Source: a virus (lineage: Duplodnaviria; Caudoviricetes). From it: a DNA stretch of 35,926 bases. The number at the start of each line of letters is the position of its first letter. Positions within the stretch are counted from its first letter, which is position 1. The translations under genes were made by a program, and so were the position numbers. The stretch covers positions 1-35,926 of IMG/VR virus record IMGVR_UViG_3300010052_000172; one strand, written 5' to 3'. This document shows, in pieces, positions 4,643-34,262 of the stretch. A model generated the notes under the pieces. The model ran no database searches. It was not told where the DNA came from and saw nothing but the letters and a program-made list of their open reading frames with translations.

Positions 4643-4675
4643 ACCAATCCGTGAGTGCGCCAGCCAAAAGCAGAT

Positions 4676-4703
4676 CTCCTGTCCCTACATACGGGAAAGG
4701 AGG
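4676..4703 (+). promoter_or_regulatory. CTACATA motif in a hairpin that overlaps the SD of the 4709 gene
   Basis: CTCCT-G-TCCC [TACATAC] GGGA-A-AGGAG; SD AAGGAGG lies on the 3' arm. Confidence 0.65.
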
Positions 4704-4708
4704 CCCCT

Positions 4709-10531: not shown

Positions 10532-10552
10532 CCAGTATCTAGCTGGACTGGA

Positions 10553-12514: not shown

Positions 12515-12517
12515 ACG

Positions 12518-12844: not shown

Positions 12845-13170
12845 CCCAGTTCGTCCACGTCCTGCTTGGTGAAGCCGTTGATACGGCAGGCCAGAGCAAA
12901 GACTCTGTCGAGAGCGGCGGCAGACTTCTTGCCGACAGCGTCCACATCTGCGGGAGAGAACAGCAATTCGCCGTTCTCATCGCAGACAGTCTGAACCGCC
13001 ATGCGTGCCCGGAAGTCTTTGTGCGGGTCTTTGAGTTGGACGCTCTCGAAAGCATCCCGCTCAGAGCCTGACATGGTGCGAACGAACACAGAGCCGCCCC
13101 ATTCGGGAACGGCCACCTCTTCTTTCTTCAGGTCGGTAGCTGTGAGAATTGAATCACGAGAGAGAGGCAT
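12835..13170 (-). CDS. Tail assembly chaperone (gpG-like)
   Basis: 111 aa; VPEWGGSVFVR, DENGELLFS; lies between major tail and tape measure. Confidence 0.88.
   Translation of the reverse strand: MPLSRDSILTATDLKKEEVAVPEWGGSVFVRTMSGSERDAFESVQLKDPHKDFRARMAVQTVCDENGELLFSPADVDAVGKKSAAALDRVFALACRINGFTKQDVDELGNV
12841..12847 (-). other. -1 programmed frameshift site G GGA AAC
   Basis: X XXY YYZ in the correct phase, one codon before the stop; the -1 frame joins ATG 12817; hairpin GAATG-TTCG-CATTC downstream. Confidence 0.85.
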
Positions 13171-13172
13171 GG

Positions 13173-13604
13173 TTATTCCTCCTCTTCCGGAGGAGCCCCT
13201 CCGCCAGCCTTGACCACGTTGCCCGTCGGCTGAATCTCAAAGCTGACCGAGACGTTGTCTTCTGGTGTGTGGCCCGAGATTTCAAACTTGGAGAGGTAGC
13301 CCGAGAACGTGTAGGTCGTCGGTGTTGCCGTGGCCACAGTGATGACCCACGTGCTCAACCCCTTGCTCGCAAGCAGCGCATAGACAGCAGCGTGCTGAGT
13401 GTCGTCTGGATCAAACCAGAGTTCGCCCGATACTGGATTGACCTTGTGCATTCCCGGCCGGTACGTGCGTCCGGTCGTGGTGCTGTTGCTCGTGGTCTCG
13501 ACCATGTCGACTTCGACGCCGATTCCGGTCAGCGTGTAGATCTCGCCGATGACGTTCGATCCAAGCTTGAGCGTTGTGCCCTTTCCTTCAATTACATTTG
13601 CCAT
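13173..13604 (-). CDS. Major tail (tube) protein
   Basis: 143 aa; GKGTTL, TYTFSGY, VSFEIQPTG; position in the operon. Confidence 0.85.
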   Translation of the reverse strand: MANVIEGKGTTLKLGSNVIGEIYTLTGIGVEVDMVETTSNSTTTGRTYRPGMHKVNPVSGELWFDPDDTQHAAVYALLASKGLSTWVITVATATPTTYTFSGYLSKFEISGHTPEDNVSVSFEIQPTGNVVKAGGGAPPEEEE

Positions 13605-13638
13605 AGATACTCCACCAAAAAGCTGTGGAGGTATCTAG
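13604..13638 (-). promoter_or_regulatory. CTAGATA motif in an inverted repeat covering the SD and start of the major tail gene
   Basis: Minus strand: C TAGATAC C TCCAC agctttttg GTGGA GTATCTA TG. Confidence 0.65.
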
Positions 13639-13649
13639 GGGTCTCGCTT

Positions 13650-14078
13650 TCAGAATTGAGGCTTGGGCTCTCGGTAGATCACCATGTAATCGCTGGCGAT
13701 GTGATGCCGCCAAACGTCAGTCCCGGCCTCCGGTGGTTCAGGCAGAACAGCGATGTTGTCCAGCAGAATGGACATGGCGTAGACATCCTCTGTCAGAGGC
13801 CCTCGATAGCCTTGCAGGACGAGCCGGATCTCTTCCGCCACGTGCTCGGCGTCCTCTGGATCTAGGCTCCACGTGTCGACCTGAATCCTCGCACGTGCCA
13901 CGCCGCTTCCGCCGTCCAAGCTGTGGTCATGAGTCTCGGAGACTCTCCACAAACTGACAGCAGGCCCGCCCCAATCGAACGTCTGCGGAAGATGGTATTT
14001 CCAGATGTTCGTCCCCACTTCATCAGTGATGGACTCAAAGCCAACGAGGTACTGGTAGACAGCGGTTTCGATACTCAT
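13650..14078 (-). CDS. Tail terminator/completion protein (DUF3168-like)
   Basis: 142 aa; ARIQVDTWS...AEEIRLVL. Confidence 0.82.
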   Translation of the reverse strand: MSIETAVYQYLVGFESITDEVGTNIWKYHLPQTFDWGGPAVSLWRVSETHDHSLDGGSGVARARIQVDTWSLDPEDAEHVAEEIRLVLQGYRGPLTEDVYAMSILLDNIAVLPEPPEAGTDVWRHHIASDYMVIYREPKPQF

Positions 14079-14090
14079 GCGAGTATCTAT

Positions 14091-14516
14091 TCAGTTGCGA
14101 TTGGCTTCCTTGAGGATGCCTTTGCCGATCTCGTCCTTGATGATCTTGGCTGCTTCCTCTTTCTTCTCGTCGAACGCTCGCCGCATGAAGCCACGGCCCG
14201 GCATCTTCGAAGTGCCCAGTTCGACGTTGGCGGCATACCACGTGGGACCGGTCCAATCCTTCTTGCCGATTCCAACCGTGACCCCGAACCGCTTCCGAGA
14301 CCGCTTGAGAGAACGAATCTTGGAGCCCGCTTCCTTCATTGCTCCCGTCTCGCCGACAGGGATGTTCTGATCGATCGCTTTCTTGATCGGCTTCATCGCT
14401 TTACGGAGTGCCGATTGGATGAGCTTCTTGGCAACCCTCGCCTCAAGGGTCTTGAGTTCAGCGAGGATCTCTTCAACGCCATCGATCGTGAACTGTGCTG
14501 CGCCCGCCTTAGCCAT
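14091..14516 (-). CDS. HK97 gp10-like neck protein
   Basis: IDGVEEI, PVGETG, WYAANVELGTSKMPGRGFMRRAFD. Confidence 0.88.
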   Translation of the reverse strand: MAKAGAAQFTIDGVEEILAELKTLEARVAKKLIQSALRKAMKPIKKAIDQNIPVGETGAMKEAGSKIRSLKRSRKRFGVTVGIGKKDWTGPTWYAANVELGTSKMPGRGFMRRAFDEKKEEAAKIIKDEIGKGILKEANRN

Positions 14517-14793
14517 GAGCCTCCCGGCAGAGGACAGTCGTTTCCTCTGCGGCAGGGTTGAAGCTGATGACGTTCACTACGTGGAGCGACCGGGAGCCAT
14601 GGCCGATGACGTCGCCCGGTCCGATGTCGTCTCGGTAGCGCAGGACAACCTCACAGGTCTTCGACTTCGGCGGCTCCGCTGTGATGCTCAGGGACTCAGT
14701 CCCTTTGACCTTCCCAATCTCCGCCCAGATCGGACCCGTCATGACGGGTCCTCGTGTGAGCATGACTTTCGATAGACAGCCTACGTTCTTCAT
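14509..14793 (-). CDS. Second head-closure/adaptor-like protein
   Basis: 94 aa; IWAEI...GTE...LRYRDDI...LCRE resembles the SPP1 gp16 family. Confidence 0.6.
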   Translation of the reverse strand: MKNVGCLSKVMLTRGPVMTGPIWAEIGKVKGTESLSITAEPPKSKTCEVVLRYRDDIGPGDVIGHGSRSLHVVNVISFNPAAEETTVLCREAHG

Positions 14794-15134
14794 TTCTTCA
14801 GTTCCTTCACTGTGAGGACAAGGGTCTTGAACTCCATGTTGACGTTGTCGGTAGCGACGATGCCGAAGACCTTTCCGTCAAAGAGAACCCGGTGTTGTTC
14901 TGTGATCTGAGTGTCCCCCCGCTTCGGATGGCGGAGCGTCACTCGGTACTGAGCGACAACTTGGACCTGCTTTCCGTTGACGGCTTCAGTGGTCCCAAGC
15001 GAATCGATCTCCGCCTTGATGACCTTGTCCGGAAACAGATTGACGTACGGTCCCTGCGTGATGGTTCCGCCCTCCGACTTCCCGTTCGTCGGCCGCTGGA
15101 TCTCGACGATTCTCTTGAACTTCCCTGCTTGCAT
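14790..15134 (-). CDS. Head closure protein (SPP1 gp16-like)
   Basis: 114 aa from MQAGKFKRIVEIQRP; YRVTLR, HRVLFDGKVFGI. Confidence 0.8.
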   Translation of the reverse strand: MQAGKFKRIVEIQRPTNGKSEGGTITQGPYVNLFPDKVIKAEIDSLGTTEAVNGKQVQVVAQYRVTLRHPKRGDTQITEQHRVLFDGKVFGIVATDNVNMEFKTLVLTVKELKK

Positions 15135-15142
15135 GGTTCCCC

Positions 15143-15721
15143 CTAGGCGTAGTAGCTCCACCGATCCAAGCTCAGCAAAGCTTGGATGCCGAGCGGAACC
15201 TCTTTGAACGTGAACGCCTCAGAAGAGAACGCTTCCCGGTTCTCGTAGTAGTGAGCAGCGAGCATGACCAACGCCGTCTGCGTCTTCTCTGGAATCGACT
15301 CATAGCCAGCCGTGTAGGTCACGGTGATGGCGTTTCGCTTGCAGCGGACCGATGGCCAGCACTTGTTGTAATCCGGGACGATGACTCCGGGAGTGGAGTA
15401 GATGTCCACTTCGTACTCATCTGGGTGCAAAGTTTGGACGGTGCCGTTCTGATCCACGTAGGTGATCGAGTCGACCTCGATCAGCGGTGGCTTCGGAATC
15501 TCGATGGCGCACGGAAAGACGTGGTCAATCCTCATCTCGAACGTGGTTGGCAACAGCGTCCGTTGCTGGAAGTTCTCGGCGTACTGCCAAGCGGCCCGAA
15601 TGACTCGGTCCAACAGGTCTTCATCCCCGTCAGTCCAGATATTCGAGTTCTCTCGAACCTGCTCGATGGAGACCGGCAGTCCTTCCGGTGGCGTGATTAT
15701 CTTCGGGTCTTTGATGCTCAT
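15143..15721 (-). CDS. Head-tail connector (gp6-like)
   Basis: 192 aa; PVSIEQVR, ITVTYTAGY, LAAHYYENRE. Confidence 0.88.
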   Translation of the reverse strand: MSIKDPKIITPPEGLPVSIEQVRENSNIWTDGDEDLLDRVIRAAWQYAENFQQRTLLPTTFEMRIDHVFPCAIEIPKPPLIEVDSITYVDQNGTVQTLHPDEYEVDIYSTPGVIVPDYNKCWPSVRCKRNAITVTYTAGYESIPEKTQTALVMLAAHYYENREAFSSEAFTFKEVPLGIQALLSLDRWSYYA

Positions 15722-15729
15722 GGAGGTAT

Positions 15730-16206
15730 CTAGCCCTCCACGGCTTTCTTCTTTCGAATCCGCTTCGGTTTCGGTGGTGGTAGCTCAAGCTCGACTCGTC
15801 CCGCTGGCATGTGCTCGGACTGGTCCAACGTCACCAGTTCAAACTCGAACGGCTTGCCCGGTGGCTTCGGCTCGTTGTCCACAACGTAGTTGGCAATGTC
15901 GTCCTCTGGCGGCAACCAGATTCGCTCACACAAAGAGACCCACTCCGGAGTCCGATCGAGGAGCGGGAACATCTTGATCCGGTTGAGGAACATGAGGACG
16001 TCATGATCGTTCTCGCCCTTGGCCCTCGCCTTCCGCAGATACTCGGAATACTCGACCGCTCGACCGACGACCAAGCCGATTCCTCTCTCCTCTAGGATCT
16101 CGGCCCGTTCTGGACTGCCAACGTCAACGAGTTCGTGAGAGTGCCAGCTTCGATTGCCGATGAAGGCAGGTTCCAGCAAGTACAAAAATTGGTTCAGTGT
16201 GCTCAT
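15730..16206 (-). CDS. Hypothetical head-region protein
   Basis: 158 aa from MSTLNQFL; start supported by CTACATA-TTTGC-ATG; basic C-terminal tail. Confidence 0.65.
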   Translation of the reverse strand: MSTLNQFLYLLEPAFIGNRSWHSHELVDVGSPERAEILEERGIGLVVGRAVEYSEYLRKARAKGENDHDVLMFLNRIKMFPLLDRTPEWVSLCERIWLPPEDDIANYVVDNEPKPPGKPFEFELVTLDQSEHMPAGRVELELPPPKPKRIRKKKAVEG

Positions 16207-16231
16207 GCAAATATGTAGAGCGTGGACGGCG

Positions 16232-16274
16232 CAAACGAACAGAGGGGAGTCAGGTTTCCCCAACTCCCCTCTGT
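16232..16274 (-). terminator. Intrinsic terminator after the major capsid gene
   Basis: 12-bp stem ACAGAGGGGAGT/ACTCCCCTCTGT followed by TCGTTT. Confidence 0.7.
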
Positions 16275-16298
16275 GATTCTTCACTCACTCAGACCGGC

Positions 16299-17582
16299 CT
16301 AGTTCGTTCGAACATCGACACACTTGGCGAAGCTTTCCGGATGGCGGAGAGCGACGTCAAGTTCCTGAAGGACGGTGATCTGGACTGCTCCCGCAGTGTC
16401 AGCCGAGTACGGGTTGACGTTCACGTCCAATCCGCCCCACATACCAACCAGAACATCGCTCCAATTTGCGAAGATCGCAGCCGAAAGGCTGGTCCCGTAT
16501 GGACCCTTGGTGAGGTTGCTTGGCAACTGGTTCGAGGCGTAAGCCTTGTAACCGTTGATCGAATCATTTTCCCAAATGAAGCGAGCGGTTGAGGACGAAA
16601 TCTCGGTGGACTTCAATTTTCCACGACCGGCCGGAGTCGTGACGTAAGCAAGGTTGCCAACGTCTGCATTGCCAGCGGCAACAGCGGTTTCCATTTCGAC
16701 GAACTTGGCGAAGGTTGGGTAAGCCGTCCCGTCTCCGATAGAGACGGTAGAGACAGAGGAGTTCTGGAGAACCCCTTCCGGCTCTGCGCCCGAGCCCGAT
16801 CCGTTGAAGATGACCCGGTCAAGCTCGTGAGCAAGGCAAGCCGTCAGATCGTCGATCACGAACTTTTCGGCGTCCATGCTTGTCTGACGCATGAATGCTC
16901 TGGTGTACTTCGTGTGCGCTCCGCAGGTCGTTGGCGACAGCGGAACCTGACCGATGGTTGGGTTGCTGGCAGTGATGGTCGAAGAGCCATCGGCACTGAT
17001 CCAGTAAGCCGTTGCTCCGCCAGTCTGCTTCGGAACCTGAATGACTCCCGACAGGTCAGACAGCATGGTCACGCCAAGCTCTGATCCGAGCATCTTCTTA
17101 CGGAGAAGTTCAATGAACGAATCGTGCTTGACGGTTTCGTCGAGAGCCCCGGCACCGGTGGTGAGATCGAGGTTGCCGTACTGGAGAGGCATGAAGAACC
17201 CTTGTGGATTCTTGCCGCTCTTCTTGGCAATCTCGGCAGAGACTTCAGCCTCAAGCCCAACCTGACGGCCGAACTCAAGCTGATTGCGGAGAGCCCGGAG
17301 AACCGAGTACCGCTTGATGTCCTTGTGGATCGGTTCAGCATCGAGAGTGCTGAAGTTCGAGATCCGGCCAGTGGATTGCTTGAGCGAGGACTCAACAACT
17401 TCCAGCTTGGCCGACTGATCACGGAGAGCCTTCAGCTTCTCCACTTCGGCGATGATGTTGTCAACGAGAGCTTGTTCGTCGGCATTGACGTCACGCCCCT
17501 CACCTTCAGCGAAGTTCGTAATCTTGCGAGCTTCCGCTACCTTTGCGGCAATCTGTTCATCGTACTGCTTGGCATTCTTCAT
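16299..17582 (-). CDS. HK97-fold major capsid protein with N-terminal delta domain
   Basis: 427 aa; coiled-coil N-terminus, NGSGSGAEPEGV, DVALRHPESF; SD GAGGAAG. Confidence 0.95.
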   Translation of the reverse strand: MKNAKQYDEQIAAKVAEARKITNFAEGEGRDVNADEQALVDNIIAEVEKLKALRDQSAKLEVVESSLKQSTGRISNFSTLDAEPIHKDIKRYSVLRALRNQLEFGRQVGLEAEVSAEIAKKSGKNPQGFFMPLQYGNLDLTTGAGALDETVKHDSFIELLRKKMLGSELGVTMLSDLSGVIQVPKQTGGATAYWISADGSSTITASNPTIGQVPLSPTTCGAHTKYTRAFMRQTSMDAEKFVIDDLTACLAHELDRVIFNGSGSGAEPEGVLQNSSVSTVSIGDGTAYPTFAKFVEMETAVAAGNADVGNLAYVTTPAGRGKLKSTEISSSTARFIWENDSINGYKAYASNQLPSNLTKGPYGTSLSAAIFANWSDVLVGMWGGLDVNVNPYSADTAGAVQITVLQELDVALRHPESFAKCVDVRTN

Positions 17583-17718
17583 TCTTCCTCAGAGGCCCAC
17601 GTGTAAAACACGAACAGCGAACGCAGTCGTATCGTGGTGCCATGTTTGTGAATGGCATCCGCCGAAACGTCCGCAGTTCGCCGCTAAGACCGTCTCAAGG
17701 ATTTGATTCTCGGAGCGA

Positions 17719-17751
17719 GGCGGGAGATCAACTACACGGTGATCTCCCGCC
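17719..17751. repeat. 12-bp perfect inverted repeat in the capsid 5' leader
   Basis: GGCGGGAGATCA-N9-TGATCTCCCGCC. Confidence 0.85.
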
Positions 17752-17769
17752 ACCACTCACTTCAATTAG

Positions 17770-18411
17770 TTAGAGTCCCGCCTCCAAAATTCTCAGCTTC
17801 GTTTTCAAAAGATTTCTTCGGATCGGTGCTGGCTTCTGACTCTGGAGATATTCCTCCAAGCTCTTCAACGCCTCTGGCGATGACTCACTCAGCGAGAAGA
17901 GTTCCGGCTTGGCTTTGTCCTGAGAGTGCAGATCAACAGTTGTGTTCTGGAAGCTTGGGTCAAACACGACCGAGACCTCTATGAGACGTCCTTTGACGTG
18001 GTCTCTCACGTGGTACTCGCCAGAGTGGTCCCACTCCCACGAGTCCGGCTCATATCCAAACGACATTCCCTTGAGGTCTTTGCGTCCAACGAGGAACGCC
18101 GTGTCCCGGCCGTCAGTCGTGTCAGGGAGATCGAGATCAAACCAGAGACCGACCTCGTCGGATCTCAACGTGAGCGAGCCGTTGCTCAACTGCCCGAGGT
18201 AGATGTCGTAGTTGTGGTCTCGATACGCCGTGACGTTCACGCCCTCTTGGCCAAGGTTGGCAAAGCTCTCTCGTGAGAACCTGTCACGGTATCCGCCTCG
18301 ATCAGATGAAATCTGATTCCACTTGGTGGCGTATCCAGACAGCTTTCCCGGAGTGCCTTCCTTGGTCTCGGAGAAGATCGAAGTTGAACAGAAATATTTT
18401 TCCATGGTCAT
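17770..18411 (-). CDS. HK97-family prohead protease
   Basis: LSGYA, DHN, DEVGLWF, GMSFGY, LIEVSVV.DP; alternative start at 18405. Confidence 0.92.
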   Translation of the reverse strand: MTMEKYFCSTSIFSETKEGTPGKLSGYATKWNQISSDRGGYRDRFSRESFANLGQEGVNVTAYRDHNYDIYLGQLSNGSLTLRSDEVGLWFDLDLPDTTDGRDTAFLVGRKDLKGMSFGYEPDSWEWDHSGEYHVRDHVKGRLIEVSVVFDPSFQNTTVDLHSQDKAKPELFSLSESSPEALKSLEEYLQSQKPAPIRRNLLKTKLRILEAGL

Positions 18412-20109
18412 CTATTTACCCAACATCATGAGGATTTCGACCGCCTTGGCCTGACGCTGCCCGATCCATTCTTCGACCGCTTCGGCAAGAGTGTCGGCCT
18501 TGGCCTTGCCGCTGAGTTCGATCAGTTGTTCTTGCCCCTGCTTGACCAACAGGTCAGCCAAGAGTTGAGGAACTCCATCCCGATTCGAGACCGCTGCGTA
18601 TGCGGTAACGCTGGGGTCCATGTGCTGGACCGAGAGGTTGGCCTGACCGCTGTAAAACTGCTCGACGTTTTGGAGAAACTTCTCTGGCTTCGCCGCATAC
18701 TTCCTGACGGTCTCGGCTTCCTTGCGGAGCATCCGCTCAAGGTTGTCTTGGAGACAGTACAACGAAGCGCAGACCGCTTGAGGGTTGGCTGAGAACGAAG
18801 CGTCCTGTGGTTTCTCCTCTGGCTTCTGCTCCAGCGTTGGACCGGGGAGCCGTGGGACTGGAGCTTGCTGGACCTGCTGCGGAGCCTGCTGTTGCTGGAG
18901 GTACGCTGAAGCCGGGACCATGTTGAGAGGATTGAGATAGACGTCCCCTTCCTCGCCGATGCCGTCCATGTTCTCCTTGCCTCTGACATCATTCACGCTG
19001 AGCCAACCCCACTGACGGCCGATGGCGTACGTGGCGTTTCTTGTTGCTGCGTCCCCTCTCATGAGTCCGTCGATCAGATGCTCAGAGAAGAACTCCCTGC
19101 GCTCGGCTTCCGTGTAAAGCTTCCGATTGACTTCGGCTTCAATCCTCCGGCAGAGAGGAGTGACCGACCCCACAACGAAGCTCGTCATCTGTTGCTCGGT
19201 GTTCGAGAACGTCCCTTGCGACAGGTCGTAGACGATTGCTGGTGGAACCCGAATCAGACGGCAGATTTCCTGTAGCTGGAAGAGTCTCGTGGACAAGAAC
19301 TGAGCGGCATCGGGAGCCACGCCGATTTGCTCAAGCGTCATGCCTTCCTCAAGGATCATGATTCGGTTGGCCCGGTCTGGCCCTCGATGTACATGCTCGA
19401 TCGACTCACGGAGATTGACCTTGGACTTGTCGTCCAGCTTCTCCGGATGCTTCAGGACGCTCTGACCGATCGAGCCGTTGCCGAACCATGTGGCTCCGAA
19501 GCGTTCCGCCGCCATGCCGAGACCGATGGCTTCTCGACCTTGCAGGAGCGGCGACGTTCCACGCAAACCGTTGCCACCGATCTTCACGTGGAACATCTTC
19601 CACGAGGGGATCGGAACCTTCGATCCTTCGACCTTGTAGATGGTCTCTCCGGACTTCGTCTTCTCGACAGACCGGACCTTGTTCGGTGGGATCAGATGCA
19701 GTCCGAGGAACTCCCCGCCTCCCGTGAACTCGATCTCTGAGAACCATTCTCCCCACGCTTCAAGATGGCTGATGCCGATCTCTCGGAAACTGAGGTAGTC
19801 CATCTCTCCATCGGGAGACTCATTGAGAGCGAGGTGGACTGGATGGTCCGAGACCTTGTCCTTTCCCCGTTGGAGTCGCTTGTATGTCGGGAGAGGGAGT
19901 GGAGCGACGTACTCACACTTGGCCCGGATGCAGGCATAAACGGAAACCAAGTTCTGAGCAGTAATCGGATTGACCGTCACGCCTGACGAGACGTTGCCAA
20001 TGTGGCGAATCTCGCTGAGATTGTGCGGTCCGCTCGGCTGAGTTGGGGCCGGTGGATTGCTGGAGTACGACTGCTGCCGCTGGTGATTTCTGCGTGATCT
20101 CTTGCTCAT
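18412..20109 (-). CDS. HK97-family portal protein with C-terminal extension
   Basis: VYACI, ILEEGM, DAAQFLSTR, FSNTEQQ, GWLSVNDVR. Confidence 0.95.
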   Translation of the reverse strand: MSKRSRRNHQRQQSYSSNPPAPTQPSGPHNLSEIRHIGNVSSGVTVNPITAQNLVSVYACIRAKCEYVAPLPLPTYKRLQRGKDKVSDHPVHLALNESPDGEMDYLSFREIGISHLEAWGEWFSEIEFTGGGEFLGLHLIPPNKVRSVEKTKSGETIYKVEGSKVPIPSWKMFHVKIGGNGLRGTSPLLQGREAIGLGMAAERFGATWFGNGSIGQSVLKHPEKLDDKSKVNLRESIEHVHRGPDRANRIMILEEGMTLEQIGVAPDAAQFLSTRLFQLQEICRLIRVPPAIVYDLSQGTFSNTEQQMTSFVVGSVTPLCRRIEAEVNRKLYTEAERREFFSEHLIDGLMRGDAATRNATYAIGRQWGWLSVNDVRGKENMDGIGEEGDVYLNPLNMVPASAYLQQQQAPQQVQQAPVPRLPGPTLEQKPEEKPQDASFSANPQAVCASLYCLQDNLERMLRKEAETVRKYAAKPEKFLQNVEQFYSGQANLSVQHMDPSVTAYAAVSNRDGVPQLLADLLVKQGQEQLIELSGKAKADTLAEAVEEWIGQRQAKAVEILMMLGK

Positions 20110-20145
20110 GCAGTAGTTAGGGGAGCCGCCTGCTTTTCCCCTGAC

Positions 20146-21768
20146 TCAGACCACCATGATTCCCCGGTCCCGGTAGACGCTTGGCTTCTCGACCTTGGAC
20201 GCCATCCACAGCGCAACACTCATGGCCGTGCTGACCACTCCGTCCACCTTCTCTTTCGATTTGCTCTTAGAGATCTTCACGTTGTCAGCGTCGTCCCGCC
20301 GAATCATCACGTTGCCCATCATCCATCTGAGGACGGGGTTGCCGCCGTGGCTGAGCTTCCCGTCGTAGACGAGCCGCTCCAACTCTTTGATCGGAGCCGT
20401 CATGCTCTGGTAGCCCTGCCCGAAGTAGCACAGATCGAAGCCGTCACCGTCCAACTCTTGGACCAACTGTGAAGCGTTCCACCGGTCCACGGCTAGCCGC
20501 TTGATCTTGTACTTGCCGCCAAGCTCATTGATGTCACGCCTAATCGTGGCGTATTCGATCGACTTGTCCCCGGCAACTTGGATGTGCTTCTGCTTGATCC
20601 ATGTGACATATGAGACTTTGTCCCGAGTCTGCCGCTGATCGGCCTGAGCCTCACAGACCCAGAAGAACGGCAGAACAATCAACTGGCCATTGTGCTCTCC
20701 CACCAGCGTCAGCGCAGTAACGTCTTCGGTGGATGCCATGTCCAACCCGCCGAACCATTCGATTGTCTTGAGTTCTTCAGCCGTGAGTTCAATGGAGCCC
20801 TTGCAGGTCATCCATTTGTCATCGGGAATCCAGCTTGCGAGAGCCTGACTCCACATGTTCAGACGGTATCGCTTGAATGTGTTCTGATCCGATGGCGTGG
20901 CCTGAGCTTTCTCGAACTCCCGGCGGAAGTCCTCAAGCTTGAGCGTCAGACCGAGAGAGGGATTGGCCTTTTTCCACGTCTCTTCCTTGGTCCAATCGTC
21001 ATCCTGCTCGGCGGCATAGATGGCGGGAAGGAAGCTCGTGTCCTCGACCACTCCATCCCTAACGTCCTTTGCGTAACACCACTGCCGCCAAGCAATGGAA
21101 TCCGGCTCGTAGACTCCGGCAGTCGAGATCGTGACGAACAACGGCTGATCCCGAGCGGCTCCCCCGTATCGCAGAGCGTTGAACAGATCAGGGTTCTTCT
21201 GACGGTGAAGCTCGTCGAAAAAGCATGCGTGAATATTCCATCCTTCGGCCGTCGCTGAATTGGACGAGAGGACTTCGTAGTAGGAGCCAGTGGCCGGAAA
21301 GACGATGCGGCTCGTCGATGGGACGCACTGAAGTTGCTCACTGAGAAACGGAGAAGACTTCATCATCTTCTCGGCTTCTTGATAGATGATCTTGCCGTGC
21401 TTGAGACTCGATGCGCACGAGTAGACTTCGGCCGATCGTTCTCCATCGGCTACGAGCGTCAGCAGCACGAGCCCGCTGCAAAGCGTGGACTTGCCGTTCT
21501 TCTTGGGGAGCCAGATGCTCGCCTCTCGAATCCGGCGAGTCCCGTCCTCCCGCTTCCAACCGAACATCTTGGAAACGATCTTGCGTTCCCATGGCAGAAG
21601 CTCGAACGGCTCGTCAGCCCATCGCCCTTTGCTGTGCCTGAGGCAGTCAGGGAAGAACTCGCAAGCGAAGTCTCCTGCGGCCTTGTCGTACCAACAGCCC
21701 TCCTTGACGGCGAGTTCGTCCAGCTTGTTCTCAATCCATCTATCAGCAACTTTTTTCCTACGTCCCAT
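20146..21768 (-). CDS. terL: Terminase large subunit
   Basis: Walker A PKKNGKS, Walker B FFDELH, ISTAG, KKANPSLG, GLDMA, KVDGVV. Confidence 0.96.
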   Translation of the reverse strand: MGRRKKVADRWIENKLDELAVKEGCWYDKAAGDFACEFFPDCLRHSKGRWADEPFELLPWERKIVSKMFGWKREDGTRRIREASIWLPKKNGKSTLCSGLVLLTLVADGERSAEVYSCASSLKHGKIIYQEAEKMMKSSPFLSEQLQCVPSTSRIVFPATGSYYEVLSSNSATAEGWNIHACFFDELHRQKNPDLFNALRYGGAARDQPLFVTISTAGVYEPDSIAWRQWCYAKDVRDGVVEDTSFLPAIYAAEQDDDWTKEETWKKANPSLGLTLKLEDFRREFEKAQATPSDQNTFKRYRLNMWSQALASWIPDDKWMTCKGSIELTAEELKTIEWFGGLDMASTEDVTALTLVGEHNGQLIVLPFFWVCEAQADQRQTRDKVSYVTWIKQKHIQVAGDKSIEYATIRRDINELGGKYKIKRLAVDRWNASQLVQELDGDGFDLCYFGQGYQSMTAPIKELERLVYDGKLSHGGNPVLRWMMGNVMIRRDDADNVKISKSKSKEKVDGVVSTAMSVALWMASKVEKPSVYRDRGIMVV

Positions 21769-21787
21769 GCAGGTAGGTAGGAGCCGC

Positions 21788-22264
21788 TCACGCCTTTCTG
21801 TGGACGTACTTGTTCATCAGTGCCGAGTGAGCCCCTGATTGTTGAGACGGGATGGCCATTCGAGAGCGAGCGGCAGGGGTCAGACCGAACTCAATTAGCC
21901 ACTTCCGGCACTGCTCTGCGGCCTGATTCATGGCGGTTTGGTAGCCAGTCAGAACAGGAAAGCCTGAGTCCTTCCCTTCCATGATGCCGAGCCCTTGGTC
22001 AACCAGAGCTTCCGCCTTTCGGTAGCGACTGTAGGCCGCTGCGTAGAGTTCGAGTGACCGAGCGTCGGCGTTCGAGAGCATCCCCATGAGATCAAGCTGC
22101 GCCGTGATGAAGTGCCACTCAGCTTTTGCAACGTCGCTCAGATGTTCGGGACACGTTGGCTTTTCCTTCGGCGGGACTGGCTCAGCCCTGTGTCTACGAC
22201 GCTTGCCGGGATCTCCCTTCAGATCGTTGATCGCCTTCGGTTTGGGAATTCGTCCTCGTGCCAT
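21788..22264 (-). CDS. terS: Terminase small subunit (P27 family)
   Basis: GRIPKP..KGDPGKR, PEHLS..AKAEW, EFGLTPAARSR. Confidence 0.93.
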   Translation of the reverse strand: MARGRIPKPKAINDLKGDPGKRRRHRAEPVPPKEKPTCPEHLSDVAKAEWHFITAQLDLMGMLSNADARSLELYAAAYSRYRKAEALVDQGLGIMEGKDSGFPVLTGYQTAMNQAAEQCRKWLIEFGLTPAARSRMAIPSQQSGAHSALMNKYVHRKA

Positions 22265-22324
22265 ACCCTATGTACGAGGCGATGCAGCAAATTCGAAGGC
22301 GATGGCGGGGAGCGAGCGGGAACC

Positions 22325-23521
22325 ATGAAGGCCGAGATGAAGCAGCACATCGTCGAACACCTCATCTCGCTGGTCCCGCAATGGTACATCGCAGACTACG
22401 GGACCAGCCCAAATGAGATTGAGGTGAACGGACACAAGCAGAAGTTCTACTCAAGCCGCACGCTGACGCCAGCCCTGCGCAAACTTCTCGAAACGATCAA
22501 TCTGAATATAGATTCGCTGATCGAGAATCCTCTGATTGGGCAGCCCCTGTTCGTCCAAGTTCTCCAAGAGCACTTTGCAATCGAGTGGCTCAAAAGCATG
22601 GCAACTGGGGTGAATTGGGCGAGCGCCGTGAATTACTTGAACAAGGTCGCCGGACGAACAAACGAGAACAATCAGGTCAGTCTGAACTTGGTAATCTCGC
22701 CCGGAGAAGCAGAAGAGCACATCGGGAACGACTGTTGGCAGAAGCTCGTCGATCAGTTGGCATCTTCACCTTTTTCCTACATTCGAGTGAATAAGAGAAT
22801 TCACTTCATGGGATATGAGGAGGTTCGCTGGGACGAGATAACAGAGTCCACAAGCTACCGGTTCTACCCTTCATTCTTGCACCCGATCCACTGCATCCTC
22901 AAGGACGGAGAATACTCTGCCCACGTGACGAGCAATGGCGACATAGTCATCATGGATCGAAGCGGCTTGCTCGCCTCCAAGAGGAAAGGACGATGGAAGC
23001 TGTACGACATGCCTACGTTCAAGAACTGCATTGTTGGCTATGTCAAAGACTATTGGACGGGTGCAAATCTTTTTGAATTGTGCTTCGATCTCAGCTTCAG
23101 GAGACATGGTGCGCTGCTCGTGTTCGACCCAGCACACAAGGTTCTCGCCCAAGTCTCAAATCCGCATTGCCGGTTAGATACGACAGAAGCGAAGTCGGGG
23201 CAACGGCTGATTGCGCCAGCACTCCGGAACATCAGTCTCAGCAGCGAGGGAGCAACGAAAGACAAGCGGCGGTTGCTCGCCGAAATCGCCAGCGTGGACG
23301 GTGCCGTCATCTTTGACACCAAAGGGGTTCTCGCATTTGGTGCGGTCATCAATCCCCACGAAAGTGTCGGCAGTCACATCGGTGCCCGAACTACCGCAGC
23401 CTTGTCTGCGTATCGGCATGGCGGTGTACCACTCAAGATTAGTTCTGATGGAGAGGTGACCGTCTATTTTGAAAGCTCGGATGGAACGAACACGTGCGAC
23501 GCTCAACTTGATTTCCACTGA
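22325..23521 (+). CDS. DisA_N (diadenylate-cyclase-like) domain protein with an uncharacterised N-terminal region
   Basis: 398 aa from ATG 22325; C-terminal RHGALLV...IASVDGAVIFD...FGAVI...GARTTAA...KISSDGEVTVY. Confidence 0.8.
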   Translation: MKAEMKQHIVEHLISLVPQWYIADYGTSPNEIEVNGHKQKFYSSRTLTPALRKLLETINLNIDSLIENPLIGQPLFVQVLQEHFAIEWLKSMATGVNWASAVNYLNKVAGRTNENNQVSLNLVISPGEAEEHIGNDCWQKLVDQLASSPFSYIRVNKRIHFMGYEEVRWDEITESTSYRFYPSFLHPIHCILKDGEYSAHVTSNGDIVIMDRSGLLASKRKGRWKLYDMPTFKNCIVGYVKDYWTGANLFELCFDLSFRRHGALLVFDPAHKVLAQVSNPHCRLDTTEAKSGQRLIAPALRNISLSSEGATKDKRRLLAEIASVDGAVIFDTKGVLAFGAVINPHESVGSHIGARTTAALSAYRHGGVPLKISSDGEVTVYFESSDGTNTCDAQLDFH

Positions 23522-23620
23522 CCCCCTCGGCCCTCAATTCTGCACGAAAACGTGTGCGCCCCTTGGGCGTATCAGGAATCTTCTCCGTTTAGAGATCCAA
23601 CGCCCCCTAGGGGGGCGGCC
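23522..23620. other. Candidate cos/packaging-initiation region
   Basis: Longest non-coding gap between HNH and terS; dyads CGCCC-ctt-GGGCG (23557-23569) and CGCCCCC-tag-GGGGGCG (23601-23617). Confidence 0.45.
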
Positions 23621-23666
23621 GATGGCCGCTGACCGACCACAGACTCCGAGAGACCAAGGCGATTCT

Positions 23667-24884
23667 ATGAACTATGAAGCAGAAAAGTACGTCTGTACTC
23701 GATGCATTCGAGACCCCTGCGTTGCAGAGTTCATCGAAGAACACAATGCGAGCGAGAAGTGTTCATATTGCCGCAGTAGGGAGCGAGCCACCTACGAACT
23801 CAGTGAAGTCTGCGGCTTCATCGAAGATCGAGTTCTCACCTTCTACACGACAGACCCGAGTGAAGAGGGACCGCTCGACAAAGAAACAGGTGAGTTTTGG
23901 GGAGTTGAGGAAGACTACATTGAGAACATTCTAGGCGAGATGGAACTCAAGCTTCGCAGCAAGAGGCTAATGAGTGACATCGTAGAGTCCATTGGAAACA
24001 CCGAGTATTACTCGAAAGGAAGCATCTCCGGAACACCTAGCCAGCGAGCCGCTGACGCATGGGAAAAGTTCTGCAACAAGGTCAAGCATAGCCGCCGGTT
24101 CACGTTCTGGACCGATTCAGAGTTCGAGATCGGGATAGACATCAATCCCTCAGAGATGCTGAAGGAGATCACGCAGCGAGGAGAAGCCGAAGGTCTTGGC
24201 CAGATCTACCCGGCAGGGACGAAGTGGTGGAAAGTCCGCATACACCGGGAAGACGAGCCTCTTGAGGCTCGACCTGAGGAGTTCACTACAGTGAAGACGG
24301 AGGGAGCGTGGGCAGCGAATCGAATGAGCCCGGCAGGCGTTCCGATGTTCTACGGTGCCGAGAAGTTCGAGACCGCCTGCCTCGAAGTCGTGAACCTGGC
24401 AGATCGAACCTTGTCAAAGAAGTTCGTCACTGGTGCCATTGTCCGAACGCTGAGACCGATGGCGTTTCTGGACCTGACGAAAGCCCCAACTCCCCGAAGC
24501 GAATTCGAGCCTTGGGATGAAGAGCGATGGCATGATGTTGCGTTCCTTCGTCACTTCGTGACCGACCTGTCCAAGCCGGTCATCAAGGATGACAAGGCTC
24601 ACATTGAGTATGTACCAACTCAGGCGTTCACCGAGTATGTGCGGTACGAGATGCAGCAGCCCAACGGACCGATGGACGGTATCGTCTTCCCAAGCTCAAA
24701 GGATGGCTCGCCCTGCGCCGTCATATTCGCCACAAGGGAACAGTGCCTTCCATTGGAAAGACACTTCGGTGAGCAACTCCTCGAAGTTGACGTCCAGACG
24801 ATTCGGTCGGTTCCTGCGACCGAAGTGCGGACGTACAGGAAAGAAGCGACGAGACGGATGAGGGCTCGCAAGCGTCGTCGCTAA
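23667..24884 (+). CDS. RES-domain protein with N-terminal Zn-binding HEPN/RES-associated domain
   Basis: 405 aa; CTRC/CSYC; KVR, NRMSPAGVPMFYGA..TACLE, EYVPTQ, DGIVFPSS. Confidence 0.88.
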   Translation: MNYEAEKYVCTRCIRDPCVAEFIEEHNASEKCSYCRSRERATYELSEVCGFIEDRVLTFYTTDPSEEGPLDKETGEFWGVEEDYIENILGEMELKLRSKRLMSDIVESIGNTEYYSKGSISGTPSQRAADAWEKFCNKVKHSRRFTFWTDSEFEIGIDINPSEMLKEITQRGEAEGLGQIYPAGTKWWKVRIHREDEPLEARPEEFTTVKTEGAWAANRMSPAGVPMFYGAEKFETACLEVVNLADRTLSKKFVTGAIVRTLRPMAFLDLTKAPTPRSEFEPWDEERWHDVAFLRHFVTDLSKPVIKDDKAHIEYVPTQAFTEYVRYEMQQPNGPMDGIVFPSSKDGSPCAVIFATREQCLPLERHFGEQLLEVDVQTIRSVPATEVRTYRKEATRRMRARKRRR

Positions 24885-25210
24885 GCTGTCGGCTTGGGCT
24901 TGGCCAACTGATTGGCCCTCGTGACCCTTGCATGACATGACTTGGTCATGCTCTTCAGGTTCTCCAGTACGAACGCCAAGTCAGGTCTCTCAATTCGATC
25001 GATGACGTGGTGGACCTCAGTCGCCAATTGGAGACAGGGTCGATTCCGTGTTCCGTCTTGGCACTGACAGGTTGGCGAGCGGCGCAGCTTGATGGCTCGC
25101 AGTGCCCTCCAACGTGGCGAGGAGTAGAAAGCTTTCGCTTCCTTCCTCTCGTCAGTGGTCTCAATCGTCGGACGTCTGGGGTCTCGGAACGTGGGGATCT
25201 TGTTCGGCAT
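24881..25210 (-). CDS. HNH endonuclease (HK97 gp74-like terminase cofactor)
   Basis: 109 aa; FYSSPRWRALR, ATEVHH, ENL...CHARVT. Confidence 0.88.
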   Translation of the reverse strand: MPNKIPTFRDPRRPTIETTDERKEAKAFYSSPRWRALRAIKLRRSPTCQCQDGTRNRPCLQLATEVHHVIDRIERPDLAFVLENLKSMTKSCHARVTRANQLAKPKPTA

Positions 25211-32000: not shown

Positions 32001-32252
32001 TTACTCTCCGGCGACGAGCCGAGAGAGACGTGCTTGTTCGCTCTTCAGACGAGCGAGTTCCGTGAGCGTGCTCACGAGCCTGTCATACTGCTCCGCAGAG
32101 TAGTATTTCCTCTTGCCAATCAAGACCGAGGGAGCCTCGATCAGTCCTTTGCGGACCTTGGTGGCGAAATGTGATTCGTCGTGACCTGTCGCCTTAGCGA
32201 CGTCCGACATGTTGTAGACGTTGAAGTGTTCTCTGACGCTAACGAATGGCAT
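32001..32252 (-). CDS. MerR/excisionase-like HTH protein
   Basis: YNMSDVAKATG...RKGLIEAP...KRKYYS; SD GGAGG. Confidence 0.72.
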   Translation of the reverse strand: MPFVSVREHFNVYNMSDVAKATGHDESHFATKVRKGLIEAPSVLIGKRKYYSAEQYDRLVSTLTELARLKSEQARLSRLVAGE

Positions 32253-32273
32253 GGGTTCCCTCCCTTTCCATTT

Positions 32274-32302
32274 ATATTAGCGTTGACATCCATTTTCTGC
32301 AA
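32274..32302 (-). promoter_or_regulatory. Sigma70-like early promoter
   Basis: TTGCAG-N17-TAATAT upstream of 32252, in an AT-rich divergent gap. Confidence 0.55.
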
Positions 32303-32333
32303 AAAATTCTGTGCGTGCCTCCTAGATACAGGC

Positions 32334-32627
32334 ATGACACAAGAATTTGACTACGACGAATACAAGGCATACCTCGCCTCCGCTCGCTGGCTCTTCACCG
32401 TGCGACCCAAGGTCTATGAACATTACCGTGGGATGTGCTGTTTTTGTGGTGAAAAATGCCGCCGCATCTATGTTGTGCATCACCACAACTACAGACATCT
32501 GTACGACGAGCTTGAGAACATAGACTCTGTTGGCGTAGCACATAGAGAATGCCACCACGAACACCACTATCCGCCATGCTCCCTGAGAGAGCTAGACAAG
32601 CAGATCAAGAAATGGTGCCGAGAATAA
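32334..32627 (+). CDS. HNH endonuclease
   Basis: 97 aa; YKAYLASARW, CCFCG, VHHHNY, CHHEHH. Confidence 0.78.
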   Translation: MTQEFDYDEYKAYLASARWLFTVRPKVYEHYRGMCCFCGEKCRRIYVVHHHNYRHLYDELENIDSVGVAHRECHHEHHYPPCSLRELDKQIKKWCRE

Positions 32628-32751
32628 AACATTGCATTAGTGTTTCCTAACAACTAATATGACCACCGGAATCTTGTGGCATGGCCCCCTCTAAAGCTCG
32701 TTGCAATGGAGGGGGTCTCTACGAGATCACCAAACCACAAGGAAGTTTTCA

Positions 32752-33144
32752 ATGGAACCGAACGAACTGTTTATCTGTCCGCCAGAGGGCGGTAGCTACC
32801 TGCCCGGACAAGGGTTTTCAACGAGCCGAACCAATCAAACAATTCAGAAGACGCTGGCTCGCTGGGGACGCTGGGTCTACGACGAGGACGAGTCCCGTCT
32901 CTGCTTCTCGGCTGATCGATACTTCAACCCCGCCGAGAGTGATCCAGACTGGGAGATCAATCTGGCTCCCGGAATTGGCCCCGGCCTCCTGTGTGACGCT
33001 CTGAAAGAATTCGCCGACTACGCCAACACTCACATGGTGATCACAGGATTTCTGAACAAGCTGGAAGACCTCCATTATCTCTGCGATGCGCTGGGAGATC
33101 TCATGTCCGAGGAATTCAAAGTGAGGTACGATCCACGAGCATAG
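32752..33144 (+). CDS. Hypothetical protein
   Basis: 130 aa from MEPNELF; SD AAGGAAG. Confidence 0.55.
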   Translation: MEPNELFICPPEGGSYLPGQGFSTSRTNQTIQKTLARWGRWVYDEDESRLCFSADRYFNPAESDPDWEINLAPGIGPGLLCDALKEFADYANTHMVITGFLNKLEDLHYLCDALGDLMSEEFKVRYDPRA

Positions 33145-33231
33145 ATAGTCCAACTCAGCATGGTCTCGAACCCCGGTGAAAGCTTGTCGCTCCACCGGGG
33201 TTCCTCGTTTTGCCATCCAAACGTTGGTCGG

Positions 33232-33336
33232 TCACTTCGGCTTCTTGCGTGCGAGCCATTCGGCGAATCTCATCTCGCCTTCTGGCTTCGGTGGTTTAGG
33301 TTCTTTGGGACTCTCGCTCTTCGGCTTCTCTGCCAT
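33232..33336 (-). CDS. Possible 34-aa basic peptide
   Basis: MAEKPKSESPKEPKPPKPEGEMRFAEWLARKKPK; SD GGAG. Confidence 0.35.
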   Translation of the reverse strand: MAEKPKSESPKEPKPPKPEGEMRFAEWLARKKPK

Positions 33337-33487
33337 GTGTTTCTCCGTAAAAGTAGAGAGGCATTTTATCGAGCCGGTCCGACTGTCTACAAACGATCCA
33401 AATAGACTGTCTATTGGTCGGAACTTTCATGTCGAAAGTCTGTCCGGAGAAACAAACATTCGCTTCCGGCGGATCGTAGATAGTTCT

Positions 33488-33712
33488 ATGAGAACGAAGA
33501 TCAATCCTGTTGCTGCGTGGCTCGTCTACGTTGCCGTCCTGGCGTCGCTCGGTCTCGCACTGATGTCGGTCATCACCGCTCCGAAGCAGGCAGAGAACTG
33601 GATCTGGAGTAATCGGTGGCCGGGAGATCGTCAGCCACGGCGAATAGATACGTCTGCCCACGAGGCGGAAAGCATCGAGACCCCGCAACCAGGGAGATTG
33701 GTCCCTGACTGA
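33488..33712 (+). CDS. Small single-TM membrane protein
   Basis: 74 aa; GTAGATA-GTTCT-ATG start; hydrophobic N-terminus. Confidence 0.55.
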   Translation: MRTKINPVAAWLVYVAVLASLGLALMSVITAPKQAENWIWSNRWPGDRQPRRIDTSAHEAESIETPQPGRLVPD

Positions 33713-33749
33713 AGGGGTCTCGTGTTGCGCACGTACAAAGTTTGGAGTC

Positions 33750-34262
33750 TTACTCGTCTTGCGACTCCGTCTCCTCGTCGCACTCAGGTGTTTCGTCATT
33801 CATTTGGCTTGGAACGTCGCTCCACTTGTAGCCAACTTCCCTTCGCCGAGGCTTGCACGGCCAGAAGCCAGCTTTCTGAAGCGGGCGATGCGATGGCGGT
33901 TCTAGGCCGCTGGCGAACACTGCCGATTTGCCACTCGCCATTTTCTTGAGTTCCGTCAGCAGCGTGGTGGCGATGCCCTGTAAGCGGAACTCCAGCAGCA
34001 CAGCGAGATAGTGTAGTTCCAGCCTAGTTGGATCTACGGTCTTGTACTGAATGAGACCGACAGGCTTGTCGCCTTCCACCCAAAAGATGTACTGGAACGT
34101 TTGCCGGTCGCTGAGAAGATGGCCAAGCGAGAAATCAAACATTCCCCTGCAAGCGTCACCCGGAGTCGAAGTGGGGTAGGTGGCTTTGAACCATGTGTGC
34201 CACTCCCGAGCAGTTCGGGGATCAATTGGCCCGTGAACAATCATTTCGTTTTGCCTCGTCAA
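33750..34262 (-). CDS. GNAT-family acetyltransferase
   Basis: LHYLAVLLEFRLQGIATTLL (motif A), LQKAGF; alternative start ATG 34244. Confidence 0.8.
   Translation of the reverse strand: MTRQNEMIVHGPIDPRTAREWHTWFKATYPTSTPGDACRGMFDFSLGHLLSDRQTFQYIFWVEGDKPVGLIQYKTVDPTRLELHYLAVLLEFRLQGIATTLLTELKKMASGKSAVFASGLEPPSHRPLQKAGFWPCKPRRREVGYKWSDVPSQMNDETPECDEETESQDE

What the first reader, a model, noticed from the sequence alone, without database searches (positions are those of the whole stretch)
22325..24884. DisA_N cyclase-like gene paired with a RES toxin: candidate nucleotide-signalling anti-phage system
Seen: two co-oriented genes lie antisense to the late operon between terS and HNH. One has DAC motifs (DGA, GARTTAA, ISSDG) behind about 230 aa of unknown domain. 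The other has a Zn-binding N-terminus and a full RES motif set. Neither has the late TA..TA start motif. Established: DisA_N domains make c-di-AMP; RES domains (MbcT, ParT) consume NAD+; CBASS, Pycsar and Thoeris pair a signal synthase with a killing effector. Inference: a sensor-cyclase makes a nucleotide that switches an NAD+-depleting effector on, or holds it off, and so protects the lysogen. I know of no characterised DAC+RES system.
Basis: partly seen in the sequence, partly recalled or inferred. Interest (0 to 1): 0.85.

Follow-up and report, generated by a model that had tools for sequence, protein, structure and literature searches.

The report
aRES gene beside unrelated orphan cyclase
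This prophage carries two passenger genes side by side: one meets the published definition of a known single-gene anti-phage enzyme that destroys NAD+ (aRES), the other is an unstudied c-di-AMP-synthase-like protein, and since their relatives are almost never neighbours they likely work separately rather than as one signalling system.

Summary
Both genes are real and intact: a 398-aa DAC-fold protein (22325-23521) and a 405-aa Zn-ribbon/HEPN_RES_NTD1/RES protein (23667-24884), antisense between terS and HNH of a provirus. The coupled system is not supported. The RES protein meets the operational definition of aRES (300-600 aa, RES plus PF18870; Osterman 2026 preprint), a stand-alone NAD+ phosphorylase defence. 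None of 120 loci of the DAC family carries an aRES-type gene. One has a distant RES-like gene, and its 92%-identical sister lacks it. None of 14 aRES-type loci carries the DAC. Among 401 Planctomycetota genomes the two families never share a genome (6 and 3). The DAC belongs to an unnamed ~400-aa family: helical domain, likely degenerate DAC copy, catalytic DAC (DGA and Arg kept, RHR changed to RTT). It resembles CdaG/DS-2C, sits beside Cap15/CBASS in two loci, and otherwise has no fixed partner. A dimer model pairs one copy's catalytic domain with the other's middle domain. Verdict: two likely independent cargo genes; aRES is known, and the orphan cyclase is the open question.

The parts
22325..23521 (+). 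Orphan DAC-family protein, 398 aa (helical N-terminal domain, middle alpha/beta domain, catalytic DAC domain)
22607..23014 (+). Middle domain (about residues 95-230), likely a degenerate, DACNH-like DAC copy; conserved RTxEN, KxxD, HxTxxGD, RKGxW
   Evidence: Element order like the DAC domain; whole-length Atlas matches to DACNH+DAC clusters, TM 0.57-0.73; pairs with the partner's catalytic domain in the dimer model; profile-profile test not significant
23027..23518 (+). Catalytic DAC domain: D325-G326-A327, G353-A354-R355, S373-S374-D375
   Evidence: D325, G326, G353 in 204 of 204 and R355 in 203 of 204 family proteins; CdaA/DisA fold
23522..23666 (.). 145-nt intergenic gap with short hairpins; no terminator or sigma-70 consensus found; fold z -1.4
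23667..24884 (+). aRES-type protein, 405 aa: Zn ribbon, HEPN_RES_NTD1, RES NAD+ phosphorylase domain
23694..24119 (+). Zn ribbon (C10, C13, C32, C35) and HEPN_RES_NTD1 (residues 27-151), the likely sensor half
   Evidence: architecture described in PMC3710099 Table 2
24243..24746 (+). RES domain (residues 193-360; R191, R219, Y229, E240, S343)
21788..22264 (-). Terminase small subunit, left flank, divergent from the DAC gene (60 nt)
24881..25210 (-). Packaging-type HNH endonuclease, right flank, convergent with the RES gene

Best explanation
The prophage carries two passenger genes in the slot between its HNH and terminase genes, and they likely act independently: an aRES-type protein predicted to destroy NAD+ on its own when a phage infects, and an orphan DAC-fold enzyme predicted to make a cyclic dinucleotide for a receptor encoded elsewhere. 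Shown: the genes, their folds, the kept catalytic residues, the fit to the aRES definition and the lack of co-occurrence in relatives. Inferred for aRES, from the tested E. coli, Klebsiella and Enterobacter proteins: it is made in the lysogen and held off by its own N-terminal half, which senses an incoming phage protein directly. [quoted passage not shown] Inferred for the DAC: it dimerises so that each catalytic domain packs on the partner's degenerate copy, and makes c-di-AMP or an asymmetric product such as cUA. It would act as an add-on cyclase for a host CBASS/Cap15-type effector or another host receptor, as DS-2C does in CBASS-DAC. The aRES part is about 0.9 likely, independence about 0.9, an active cyclase about 0.8 and a defence role for it about 0.6.
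For: aRES is defined as 300-600 aa with RES and PF18870, and as not operon-associated; P0002 is 405 aa with both over cut-off. aRES-type relatives sit in defence islands beside changing neighbours: IetAS, PifA-like and Gabija, Hhe and PDC-S08, Mrr. No aRES-type gene in 120 DAC loci, of which 79 have at least 1400 nt downstream and 61 on both sides. No DAC-family gene in 14 aRES-type loci. 171 plasmids hold an aRES relative but only 2 hold a DAC relative. 40 of 43 DAC-family genomes have no aRES-type match, and the 3 matches are on other contigs. DAC catalytic set kept in 88 of 89. The family lies directly before Cap15 and a CD-NTase in L124, and between Cap15 and a type II CBASS in the distant L126. 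Its nearest relative with context lies before Shedu. Dimer model: score 0.48, best of 3 controls 0.22; the mark was reached by 20 of 30 solved homodimers and 1 of 23 single chains; runs agree in at least 98% of contacts, pLDDT at least 87. HNH and terL are about 0.75-1.1 kb apart in 5 of 6 distant phage loci, against 3.1 kb here.
Against: The contexts of the closest relatives (DAC 59-69%, RES 82%) could not be fetched, so a young coupled sub-lineage would be missed. L091 does have a co-oriented RES-like gene 600 nt upstream of its DAC. The genes are co-oriented, with no terminator found between them, and have similar codon scores (0.041 and 0.035), which fits arrival as one piece. Only 8 of 40 GTDB DAC loci have a defence-type neighbour within two ORFs, with no background control, and most planctomycete copies sit among housekeeping genes. 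Cap15 is found in only 2 of 43 DAC-family genomes, so the receptor is unidentified. RHR is RTT (His 0 of 89, second Arg 0 of 89). The internal duplication is not detectable by profile comparison (probability under 2%). Many genomes are incomplete MAGs.
Confidence: 0.75

Rival explanations
1. Coupled DAC-RES signalling system: the cyclase's nucleotide switches the RES NADase on, or holds it off as in Panoptes/Panoptoo.
For: Co-oriented, 145 nt apart, no terminator found; similar codon scores; a second DAC locus, L091, has a RES-like neighbour; DAC enzymes do gate effectors in Panoptoo/PanDA and CBASS-DAC.
Against: 0 of 120 and 0 of 14 loci paired. The L091 RES-like protein lacks PF18870, is not alignable to P0002 (E 0.30) and lies in the other order; its DAC is 37% identical to ours on another branch, and its 92%-identical sister L125 has no RES gene within 8 kb on either side. 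No nucleotide-sensor domain (SAVED, STING, CARF, Cap15) was found in P0002. aRES works alone.
Confidence: 0.07
2. aRES is independent, but the DAC is not a defence gene: it is a second-messenger synthase that alters host physiology (osmolyte/K+ or other c-di-AMP control), carried here as lysogenic-conversion cargo.
For: 32 of 40 GTDB loci have no defence-type family within two ORFs; planctomycete genomes keep up to three paralogues (G001); no PADLOC match.
Against: Patchy spread across many phyla, with copies beside DISARM, PARIS, GmrSD, Shedu, Septu-like and CBASS genes, and in Tn7 or recombinase cargo; its closest described kin, DS-2C/CdaG, is a defence cyclase.
Confidence: 0.12
3. The DAC-fold protein makes no cyclic dinucleotide: it binds or consumes nucleotides, or makes a linear product, because one half of each composite site is degenerate and RHR is lost.
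For: His and the second Arg are absent in 89 of 89; the dimer model puts D325 against the partner's middle domain rather than a second catalytic domain.
Against: PanS also lacks RHR (GGR) and is active, needing only the Asp and Arg that are kept here; DS-2C, with a DACNH domain, makes c-di-AMP in vitro.
Confidence: 0.04
4. The prophage uses the DAC as counter-defence, supplying a decoy nucleotide that keeps host guard effectors (OptE/PanE type) repressed during induction.
For: It is on a provirus; guard effectors are repressed by c-di-AMP or cUA.
Against: The family was not found in two scans of viral contigs, has one weak match in 50,697 phage records and none in PHROGs or BFVD; it is antisense to the lytic genes.
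Confidence: 0.02

Closest known systems
aRES (Osterman et al., bioRxiv 10.64898/2026.01.28.702374)
   Same: Stand-alone 300-600 aa protein with HEPN_RES_NTD1 (PF18870) plus RES; defence-island and mobile contexts; catalytic R, E, S kept.
   Different: Here on a prophage of an unknown, possibly planctomycete host. Identity to the three tested proteins is unknown (supplements closed). Cys350 stands where an Asn is expected; activity untested.
CdaG / DS-2C, the cyclase of CBASS-DAC (DS-2, Liu-DS2; PMC13092281, PMC13069673, 10.64898/2026.08.10.743927)
   Same: C-terminal DAC behind a likely degenerate DAC copy; whole-length structural likeness to DACNH+DAC clusters; two relatives lie beside Cap15/CBASS.
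   Different: 398 aa, not about 550; no DACNG or DACNH profile hit in 89 members; no CBASS in the window and in only 1 of 120 family loci.
PanS of Panoptoo / PanDA (10.64898/2026.08.10.743927; PMC13640721)
   Same: Divergent DAC with RHR lost (GGR there, GAR here) and Ala at the DisA T111 position, as in the cUA-making EcPanS.
   Different: PanS is a minimal ~150-aa enzyme next to an S2TM-beta effector; this protein has 230 extra residues and no such neighbour.
RES-Xre toxin-antitoxin toxins (MbcT, ParT, NatT)
   Same: RES fold and active-site residues (Z 10-12).
   Different: Fused N-terminal domains instead of a separate Xre/MbcA antitoxin gene.

Membership tests
aRES | Length 300-600 aa | tested here: met
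   405 aa; rule from the paper's methods
aRES | Hits to both the RES Pfam and PF18870 | tested here: met
   PF08808 61.5 bits (cut-off 23.2) and PF18870 85 bits (cut-off 27.4), by hmmscan rather than the paper's hhsearch. The paper prints 'PF00808', which I read as a slip for PF08808.
aRES | Stand-alone, no conserved operon partner | tested here: met
   14 relative loci show changing neighbours and no DAC-family gene
aRES | RES active-site residues intact | tested here: inconclusive
   R191, R219, Y229, E240, S343 kept, together in 87 of 97; Cys350 at the presumed Asn position; no residue-level alignment to a tested aRES was possible
aRES | NAD+ phosphorolysis to ADPR-1P on infection and phage defence | not testable with these tools
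   Needs expression, plaque assay and LC-MS
DAC (DisA_N) superfamily | DAC fold | tested here: met
   71 Foldseek matches at E<=0.001, the listed ones all CdaA/DisA-type; DisA 3c1y Z 12.0, rmsd 3.0, 126 aligned
DAC (DisA_N) superfamily | DGA motif and catalytic Arg | tested here: met
   D325 and G326 in 204 of 204, R355 in 203 of 204
DAC (DisA_N) superfamily | Canonical RHR motif | tested here: not met
   RTT; His 0 of 89, second Arg 0 of 89; active PanS also lacks it
DAC (DisA_N) superfamily | Synthesis of a cyclic dinucleotide | not testable with these tools
   Needs purified protein and LC-MS
CdaG / DS-2C | About 550 aa with an N-terminal DACNG domain | tested here: not met
   398 aa; no DACNG hit in 89 members or in 28 more distant relatives
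CdaG / DS-2C | DACNH (degenerate DAC) before the DAC | tested here: inconclusive
   No Pfam hit; profile test negative; Atlas structure and feature neighbours carry DACNH in 10-97% of members; dimer model consistent
CdaG / DS-2C | Encoded in a CBASS operon | tested here: not met
   None beside the gene in the window; 1 of 120 family loci (L124) plus the distant L126
PanS (Panoptoo/PanDA) | Minimal ~150-aa DAC adjacent to an S2TM-beta effector | tested here: not met
   398 aa; neighbours are terS and the RES gene
RES-Xre toxin-antitoxin | Small Xre/MbcA antitoxin gene directly upstream | tested here: not met
   145-nt gap, then the DAC gene; NF049844 only 12.3 bits against a cut-off of 110

The most novel reading that the evidence does not exclude
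In this prophage lineage an orphan pseudo-DAC/DAC enzyme has been recruited to gate aRES. Its asymmetric composite active site makes a non-canonical dinucleotide that arms or restrains the RES NAD+ phosphorylase: the first signal-controlled RES effector, and a defence system caught in the making.
Probability: 0.07. Interest if true: 0.8.

Novelty: new member of a known kind. Interest (0 to 1): 0.3.

Why it matters
The pair itself is most likely ordinary prophage defence cargo: an aRES on a temperate phage, outside the enterobacteria in which it was tested. What is worth taking forward is the DAC family. It is a widespread ~400-aa group with invariant catalytic residues and no fixed effector, and its predicted dimer pairs a live with a degenerate cyclase domain. 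Characterising it would test what DACNH-like domains do, which the PanDA preprint calls unknown, and what an effector-less immune-type cyclase signals to. If the RES coupling were real, it would add a new synthase-effector pairing to bacterial immunity.

Tried and rejected
PADLOC, NCBIfam and PHROGs give no significant match for either protein. Sequence searches of the PDB with both profiles gave nothing under E 0.4. BFVD gave no match for the DAC model. Residues 1-230 had no clear PDB match (best Z about 4), but were not folded alone, so this excludes nothing. Profile comparison of middle against catalytic domain was not significant. Viral-contig scans found no DAC relative and only 4 aRES-type contigs. 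No close relative of the phage was found (terL at most 36%), so no empty site in a near relative was seen. No flanking repeats above chance, no sigma-70 consensus, no terminator between the genes. No RNA holder listed. A sample of 401 genomes from the phylum of G036 (Bacillota) gave only the centre genome. The zero overlap in 401 Planctomycetota genomes rules out obligate pairing, but independence predicts the same, so it shows no avoidance. Cap15 as the general partner was rejected (2 of 43 genomes). L091 as a second instance of the system was rejected. Earlier scan notes had nothing on these sequences or this genome. Galperin 2023 and Burroughs 2015 were not held, so I cannot say whether this DAC subfamily is among the 22 named families.
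Full report
Setting. The window is an IMG/VR provirus record, 35.9 kb, about 51% complete. It has an integrase, an AAA replication gene, HNH, terS, terL, portal, protease, capsid and tail genes, read on the - strand. The host is not given; 21 of the 40 GTDB loci of the DAC family are titled Planctomycetota, so a planctomycete host is a guess.

Observation. Both ORFs are as described: P0001, 22325-23521, 398 aa, and P0002, 23667-24884, 405 aa, 145 nt apart, between a divergent terS (60 nt) and a convergent HNH. Contigs of run X1 bridge all three junctions without differences (possibly the source sample). In 5 of 6 distant phage loci holding both HNH and terL matches, the gap is about 0.75-1.1 kb (two of the five look near-identical); it is about 3 kb in the sixth (L141, other cargo) and 3.1 kb here. 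The two genes are therefore likely cargo in a variable slot. Their codon scores (0.041, 0.035) are at the bottom of the range of 15 core genes (0.038-0.204, leave-one-out), a mild sign.

The RES gene is an aRES. P0002 has a Zn ribbon, HEPN_RES_NTD1 and RES, both Pfam hits over cut-off. Its model (pLDDT 93.8) matches MbcT, NatT and ParT. R191, R219, Y229, E240 and S343 are kept together in 87 of 97 aligned proteins; the presumed terminal Asn is Cys350 (60 of 97). The architecture was described in 2013 (PMC3710099, passages). A 2026 preprint (10.64898/2026.01.28.702374; parts 1-3 of 5 and methods passages read, supplements closed) names this family aRES: stand-alone, not operon-associated, in about 4% of genomes. 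Three members defend E. coli alone by turning NAD+ into nicotinamide and ADPR-1P. Its detection rule is 300-600 aa plus RES plus PF18870, which P0002 meets. An editorial (PMC13728456, one passage) adds that aRES is activated by binding the T7 DNA polymerase; I did not see the primary data. Relatives here behave as solo defence cargo: 171 plasmids hold one (40 rows shown, 6 opened). They sit beside IetAS in a Mu-like prophage, between a PifA-like NTPase and Gabija, near Hhe, or beside Mrr.

The DAC gene. P0001 has 176 relatives at E<=0.001, of which 120 were listed, mostly full length, and 130 representatives at E<=1e-30. The model (pLDDT 94.3) has a helical N-terminal part, a middle alpha/beta domain and a C-terminal domain with the CdaA/DisA fold. 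D325, G326 and G353 are invariant in 204 proteins and R355 in 203; RHR is RTT. The PanS papers show that the Asp and Arg are what matter, and that an enzyme with Gly and Ala at DisA T107/T111 makes cUA (PMC13640721, part 1 of 8 and passages; 10.64898/2026.08.10.743927, parts 1-3 of 5). By motif register this family has Ala at both, so the product need not be c-di-AMP (inference). Pfam names only DAC in 87 of 89 members. The Atlas puts the whole protein beside DACNH+DAC clusters (TM 0.57-0.73 over 297-354 residues), and the middle domain repeats the element order of the DAC domain, but two profile-profile tests were negative. A homodimer model with ATP and Mg passed its mark: score 0.48, best of 3 controls 0.22, reached by 20 of 30 solved homodimers and 1 of 23 single chains, contacts at least 98% reproducible, pLDDT at least 87; the counts hold only roughly for this job and likeness to solved DAC dimers may help. 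Its interface joins residues 290-299 and 316-325 of one copy, including D325, to residues 131-173 of the other. That is the arrangement expected if the middle domain is a degenerate DAC that completes the site in trans. This is a prediction, not a measurement.

Co-occurrence, the key test. I fetched 40 GTDB loci and 80 of 93 metagenome loci of the DAC family; 79 of the 120 have at least 1400 nt downstream and 61 on both sides, the latter about 51 distinct at 90% identity. Six-frame searches with the aRES profile and a RES-domain profile found no aRES-type gene in any, and one distant RES-like gene, in L091. That gene lies upstream, lacks PF18870 and does not align with P0002. Its DAC is on another branch, and its 92%-identical sister on a Bacillus plasmid has no RES gene within 8 kb on either side. 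From the other side, 14 aRES-type loci (4 viral, 6 plasmid, 4 Planctomycetota with only 1.5-kb flanks) hold no DAC-family gene, and only 2 plasmids hold a DAC relative at all. Whole genomes agree: of 401 Planctomycetota, 6 have the DAC family and 3 the aRES type, none both. Of 43 DAC-family genomes, 3 have an aRES-type match, on other contigs by number; 12 of 39 have any RES domain. Limits: many are incomplete MAGs, and the nearest relatives' contigs could not be fetched.

What the DAC goes with. No fixed partner. Of 149 neighbouring ORFs scanned from the 40 GTDB loci (2 of 151 dropped for the cap) and 150 from the metagenome loci (of 181 picked, six near-duplicate loci skipped), none forms a recurring operon. 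Eight of the 40 GTDB loci have defence-type neighbours (DISARM, AbiL-like, HsdR, two methylases, GmrSD, AbiJ-NTD3, PARIS); there is no background control, and most planctomycete copies sit among housekeeping genes. The nearest relative with context lies before Shedu. Two loci tie the family to CBASS: L124, where a C-terminal fragment (108 bits over 72 aa) precedes Cap15 and a CD-NTase, and the distant L126, between Cap15 and a type II CBASS. That is the CdaG/DS-2C setting, in which the DAC's activity is needed for defence (PMC13092281, passages; PMC13069673, passages and section 21). Cap15 is present in only 2 of 43 family genomes, so in most hosts the receptor is unknown.

Mechanism. Most likely both genes are expressed in the lysogen, antisense to the late operon (inferred; no promoter found). 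aRES would sense a superinfecting phage through its N-terminal half and drain NAD+. The DAC would dimerise, make a cyclic dinucleotide and act through a host-encoded receptor. Their adjacency is what two defence-island genes sharing a cargo slot would give.

Literature on the pair. Searches for DAC with RES (of 28 listed papers, one held both 'diadenylate cyclase' and 'RES domain', a Geobacillus toxin-antitoxin screen, seen as a listing only), for RES in defence, for HEPN_RES_NTD1 and for the DACN domains showed no DAC+RES system. Galperin 2023 and Burroughs 2015 were not held, and bioRxiv supplements are closed; either could bear on whether the DAC subfamily is already named. NatT and RES background came from passages of PMC11535050 and PMC9503650.

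Verdict. Observation confirmed; coupled system not supported (about 0.07); aRES member plus orphan CdaG-like cyclase (0.75). New member of a known kind; interest 0.3, carried mostly by the orphan cyclase family.

Noticed in passing
window 10531-25210, - strand starts: TAnnTA lies 3-6 nt before the ATG of HNH, terS, terL, portal, the head-tail connector, tape measure and three more late genes (9 of 18 starts checked, 15 of 987 ATGs overall). It could be a promoter element of leaderless transcripts or an unusual translation-start signal.
   Followed up: partly
window 2165-4642 +: A 303-aa orphan ORF followed by a 491-aa protein with an N-terminal Mrr-like nuclease domain (Pfam E 2e-4) and low codon fit: a second likely defence-cargo slot beyond the tail genes.
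   Followed up: partly
window 4655-8425 +: Four tail-fibre-like or carbohydrate-related ORFs (including a LamG domain and a 285-aa glycosyltransferase-looking ORF with no significant Pfam hit) lie on the strand opposite to the tail operon, as if the distal tail module were inverted.
   Followed up: no
window 32181-34262: Between the replication genes and the integrase: a 148-aa ORF with an HNH-like motif, a 147-aa orphan and a GNAT acetyltransferase with low codon fit; possibly more cargo.
   Followed up: no
L124:3-1196: A close member of this DAC family directly precedes Cap15 and a CD-NTase, a CBASS-DAC arrangement with a subfamily that lacks a DACNG hit.
   Followed up: partly
L126:4157-11084 (NZ_AP023285.1): A 426-aa distant relative, annotated hypothetical, lies between a divergent Cap15 gene and a convergent type II CBASS with a patatin effector.
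   Followed up: partly
G001 (L150, L156, L157); L026, L029, L033, L039: One planctomycete genome holds three paralogues of the DAC gene, and several planctomycete copies look frameshifted or split.
   Followed up: no
L042:5551-10449: An aRES-type gene overlaps the start of an IetAS operon inside a Mu-like prophage, between the late regulator and the lysis genes.
   Followed up: no
L091:3149-4366: A 405-aa RES-like protein with several CxxC motifs and no PF18870 hit, in a Bacillota-like defence island; possibly another stand-alone RES type.
   Followed up: partly
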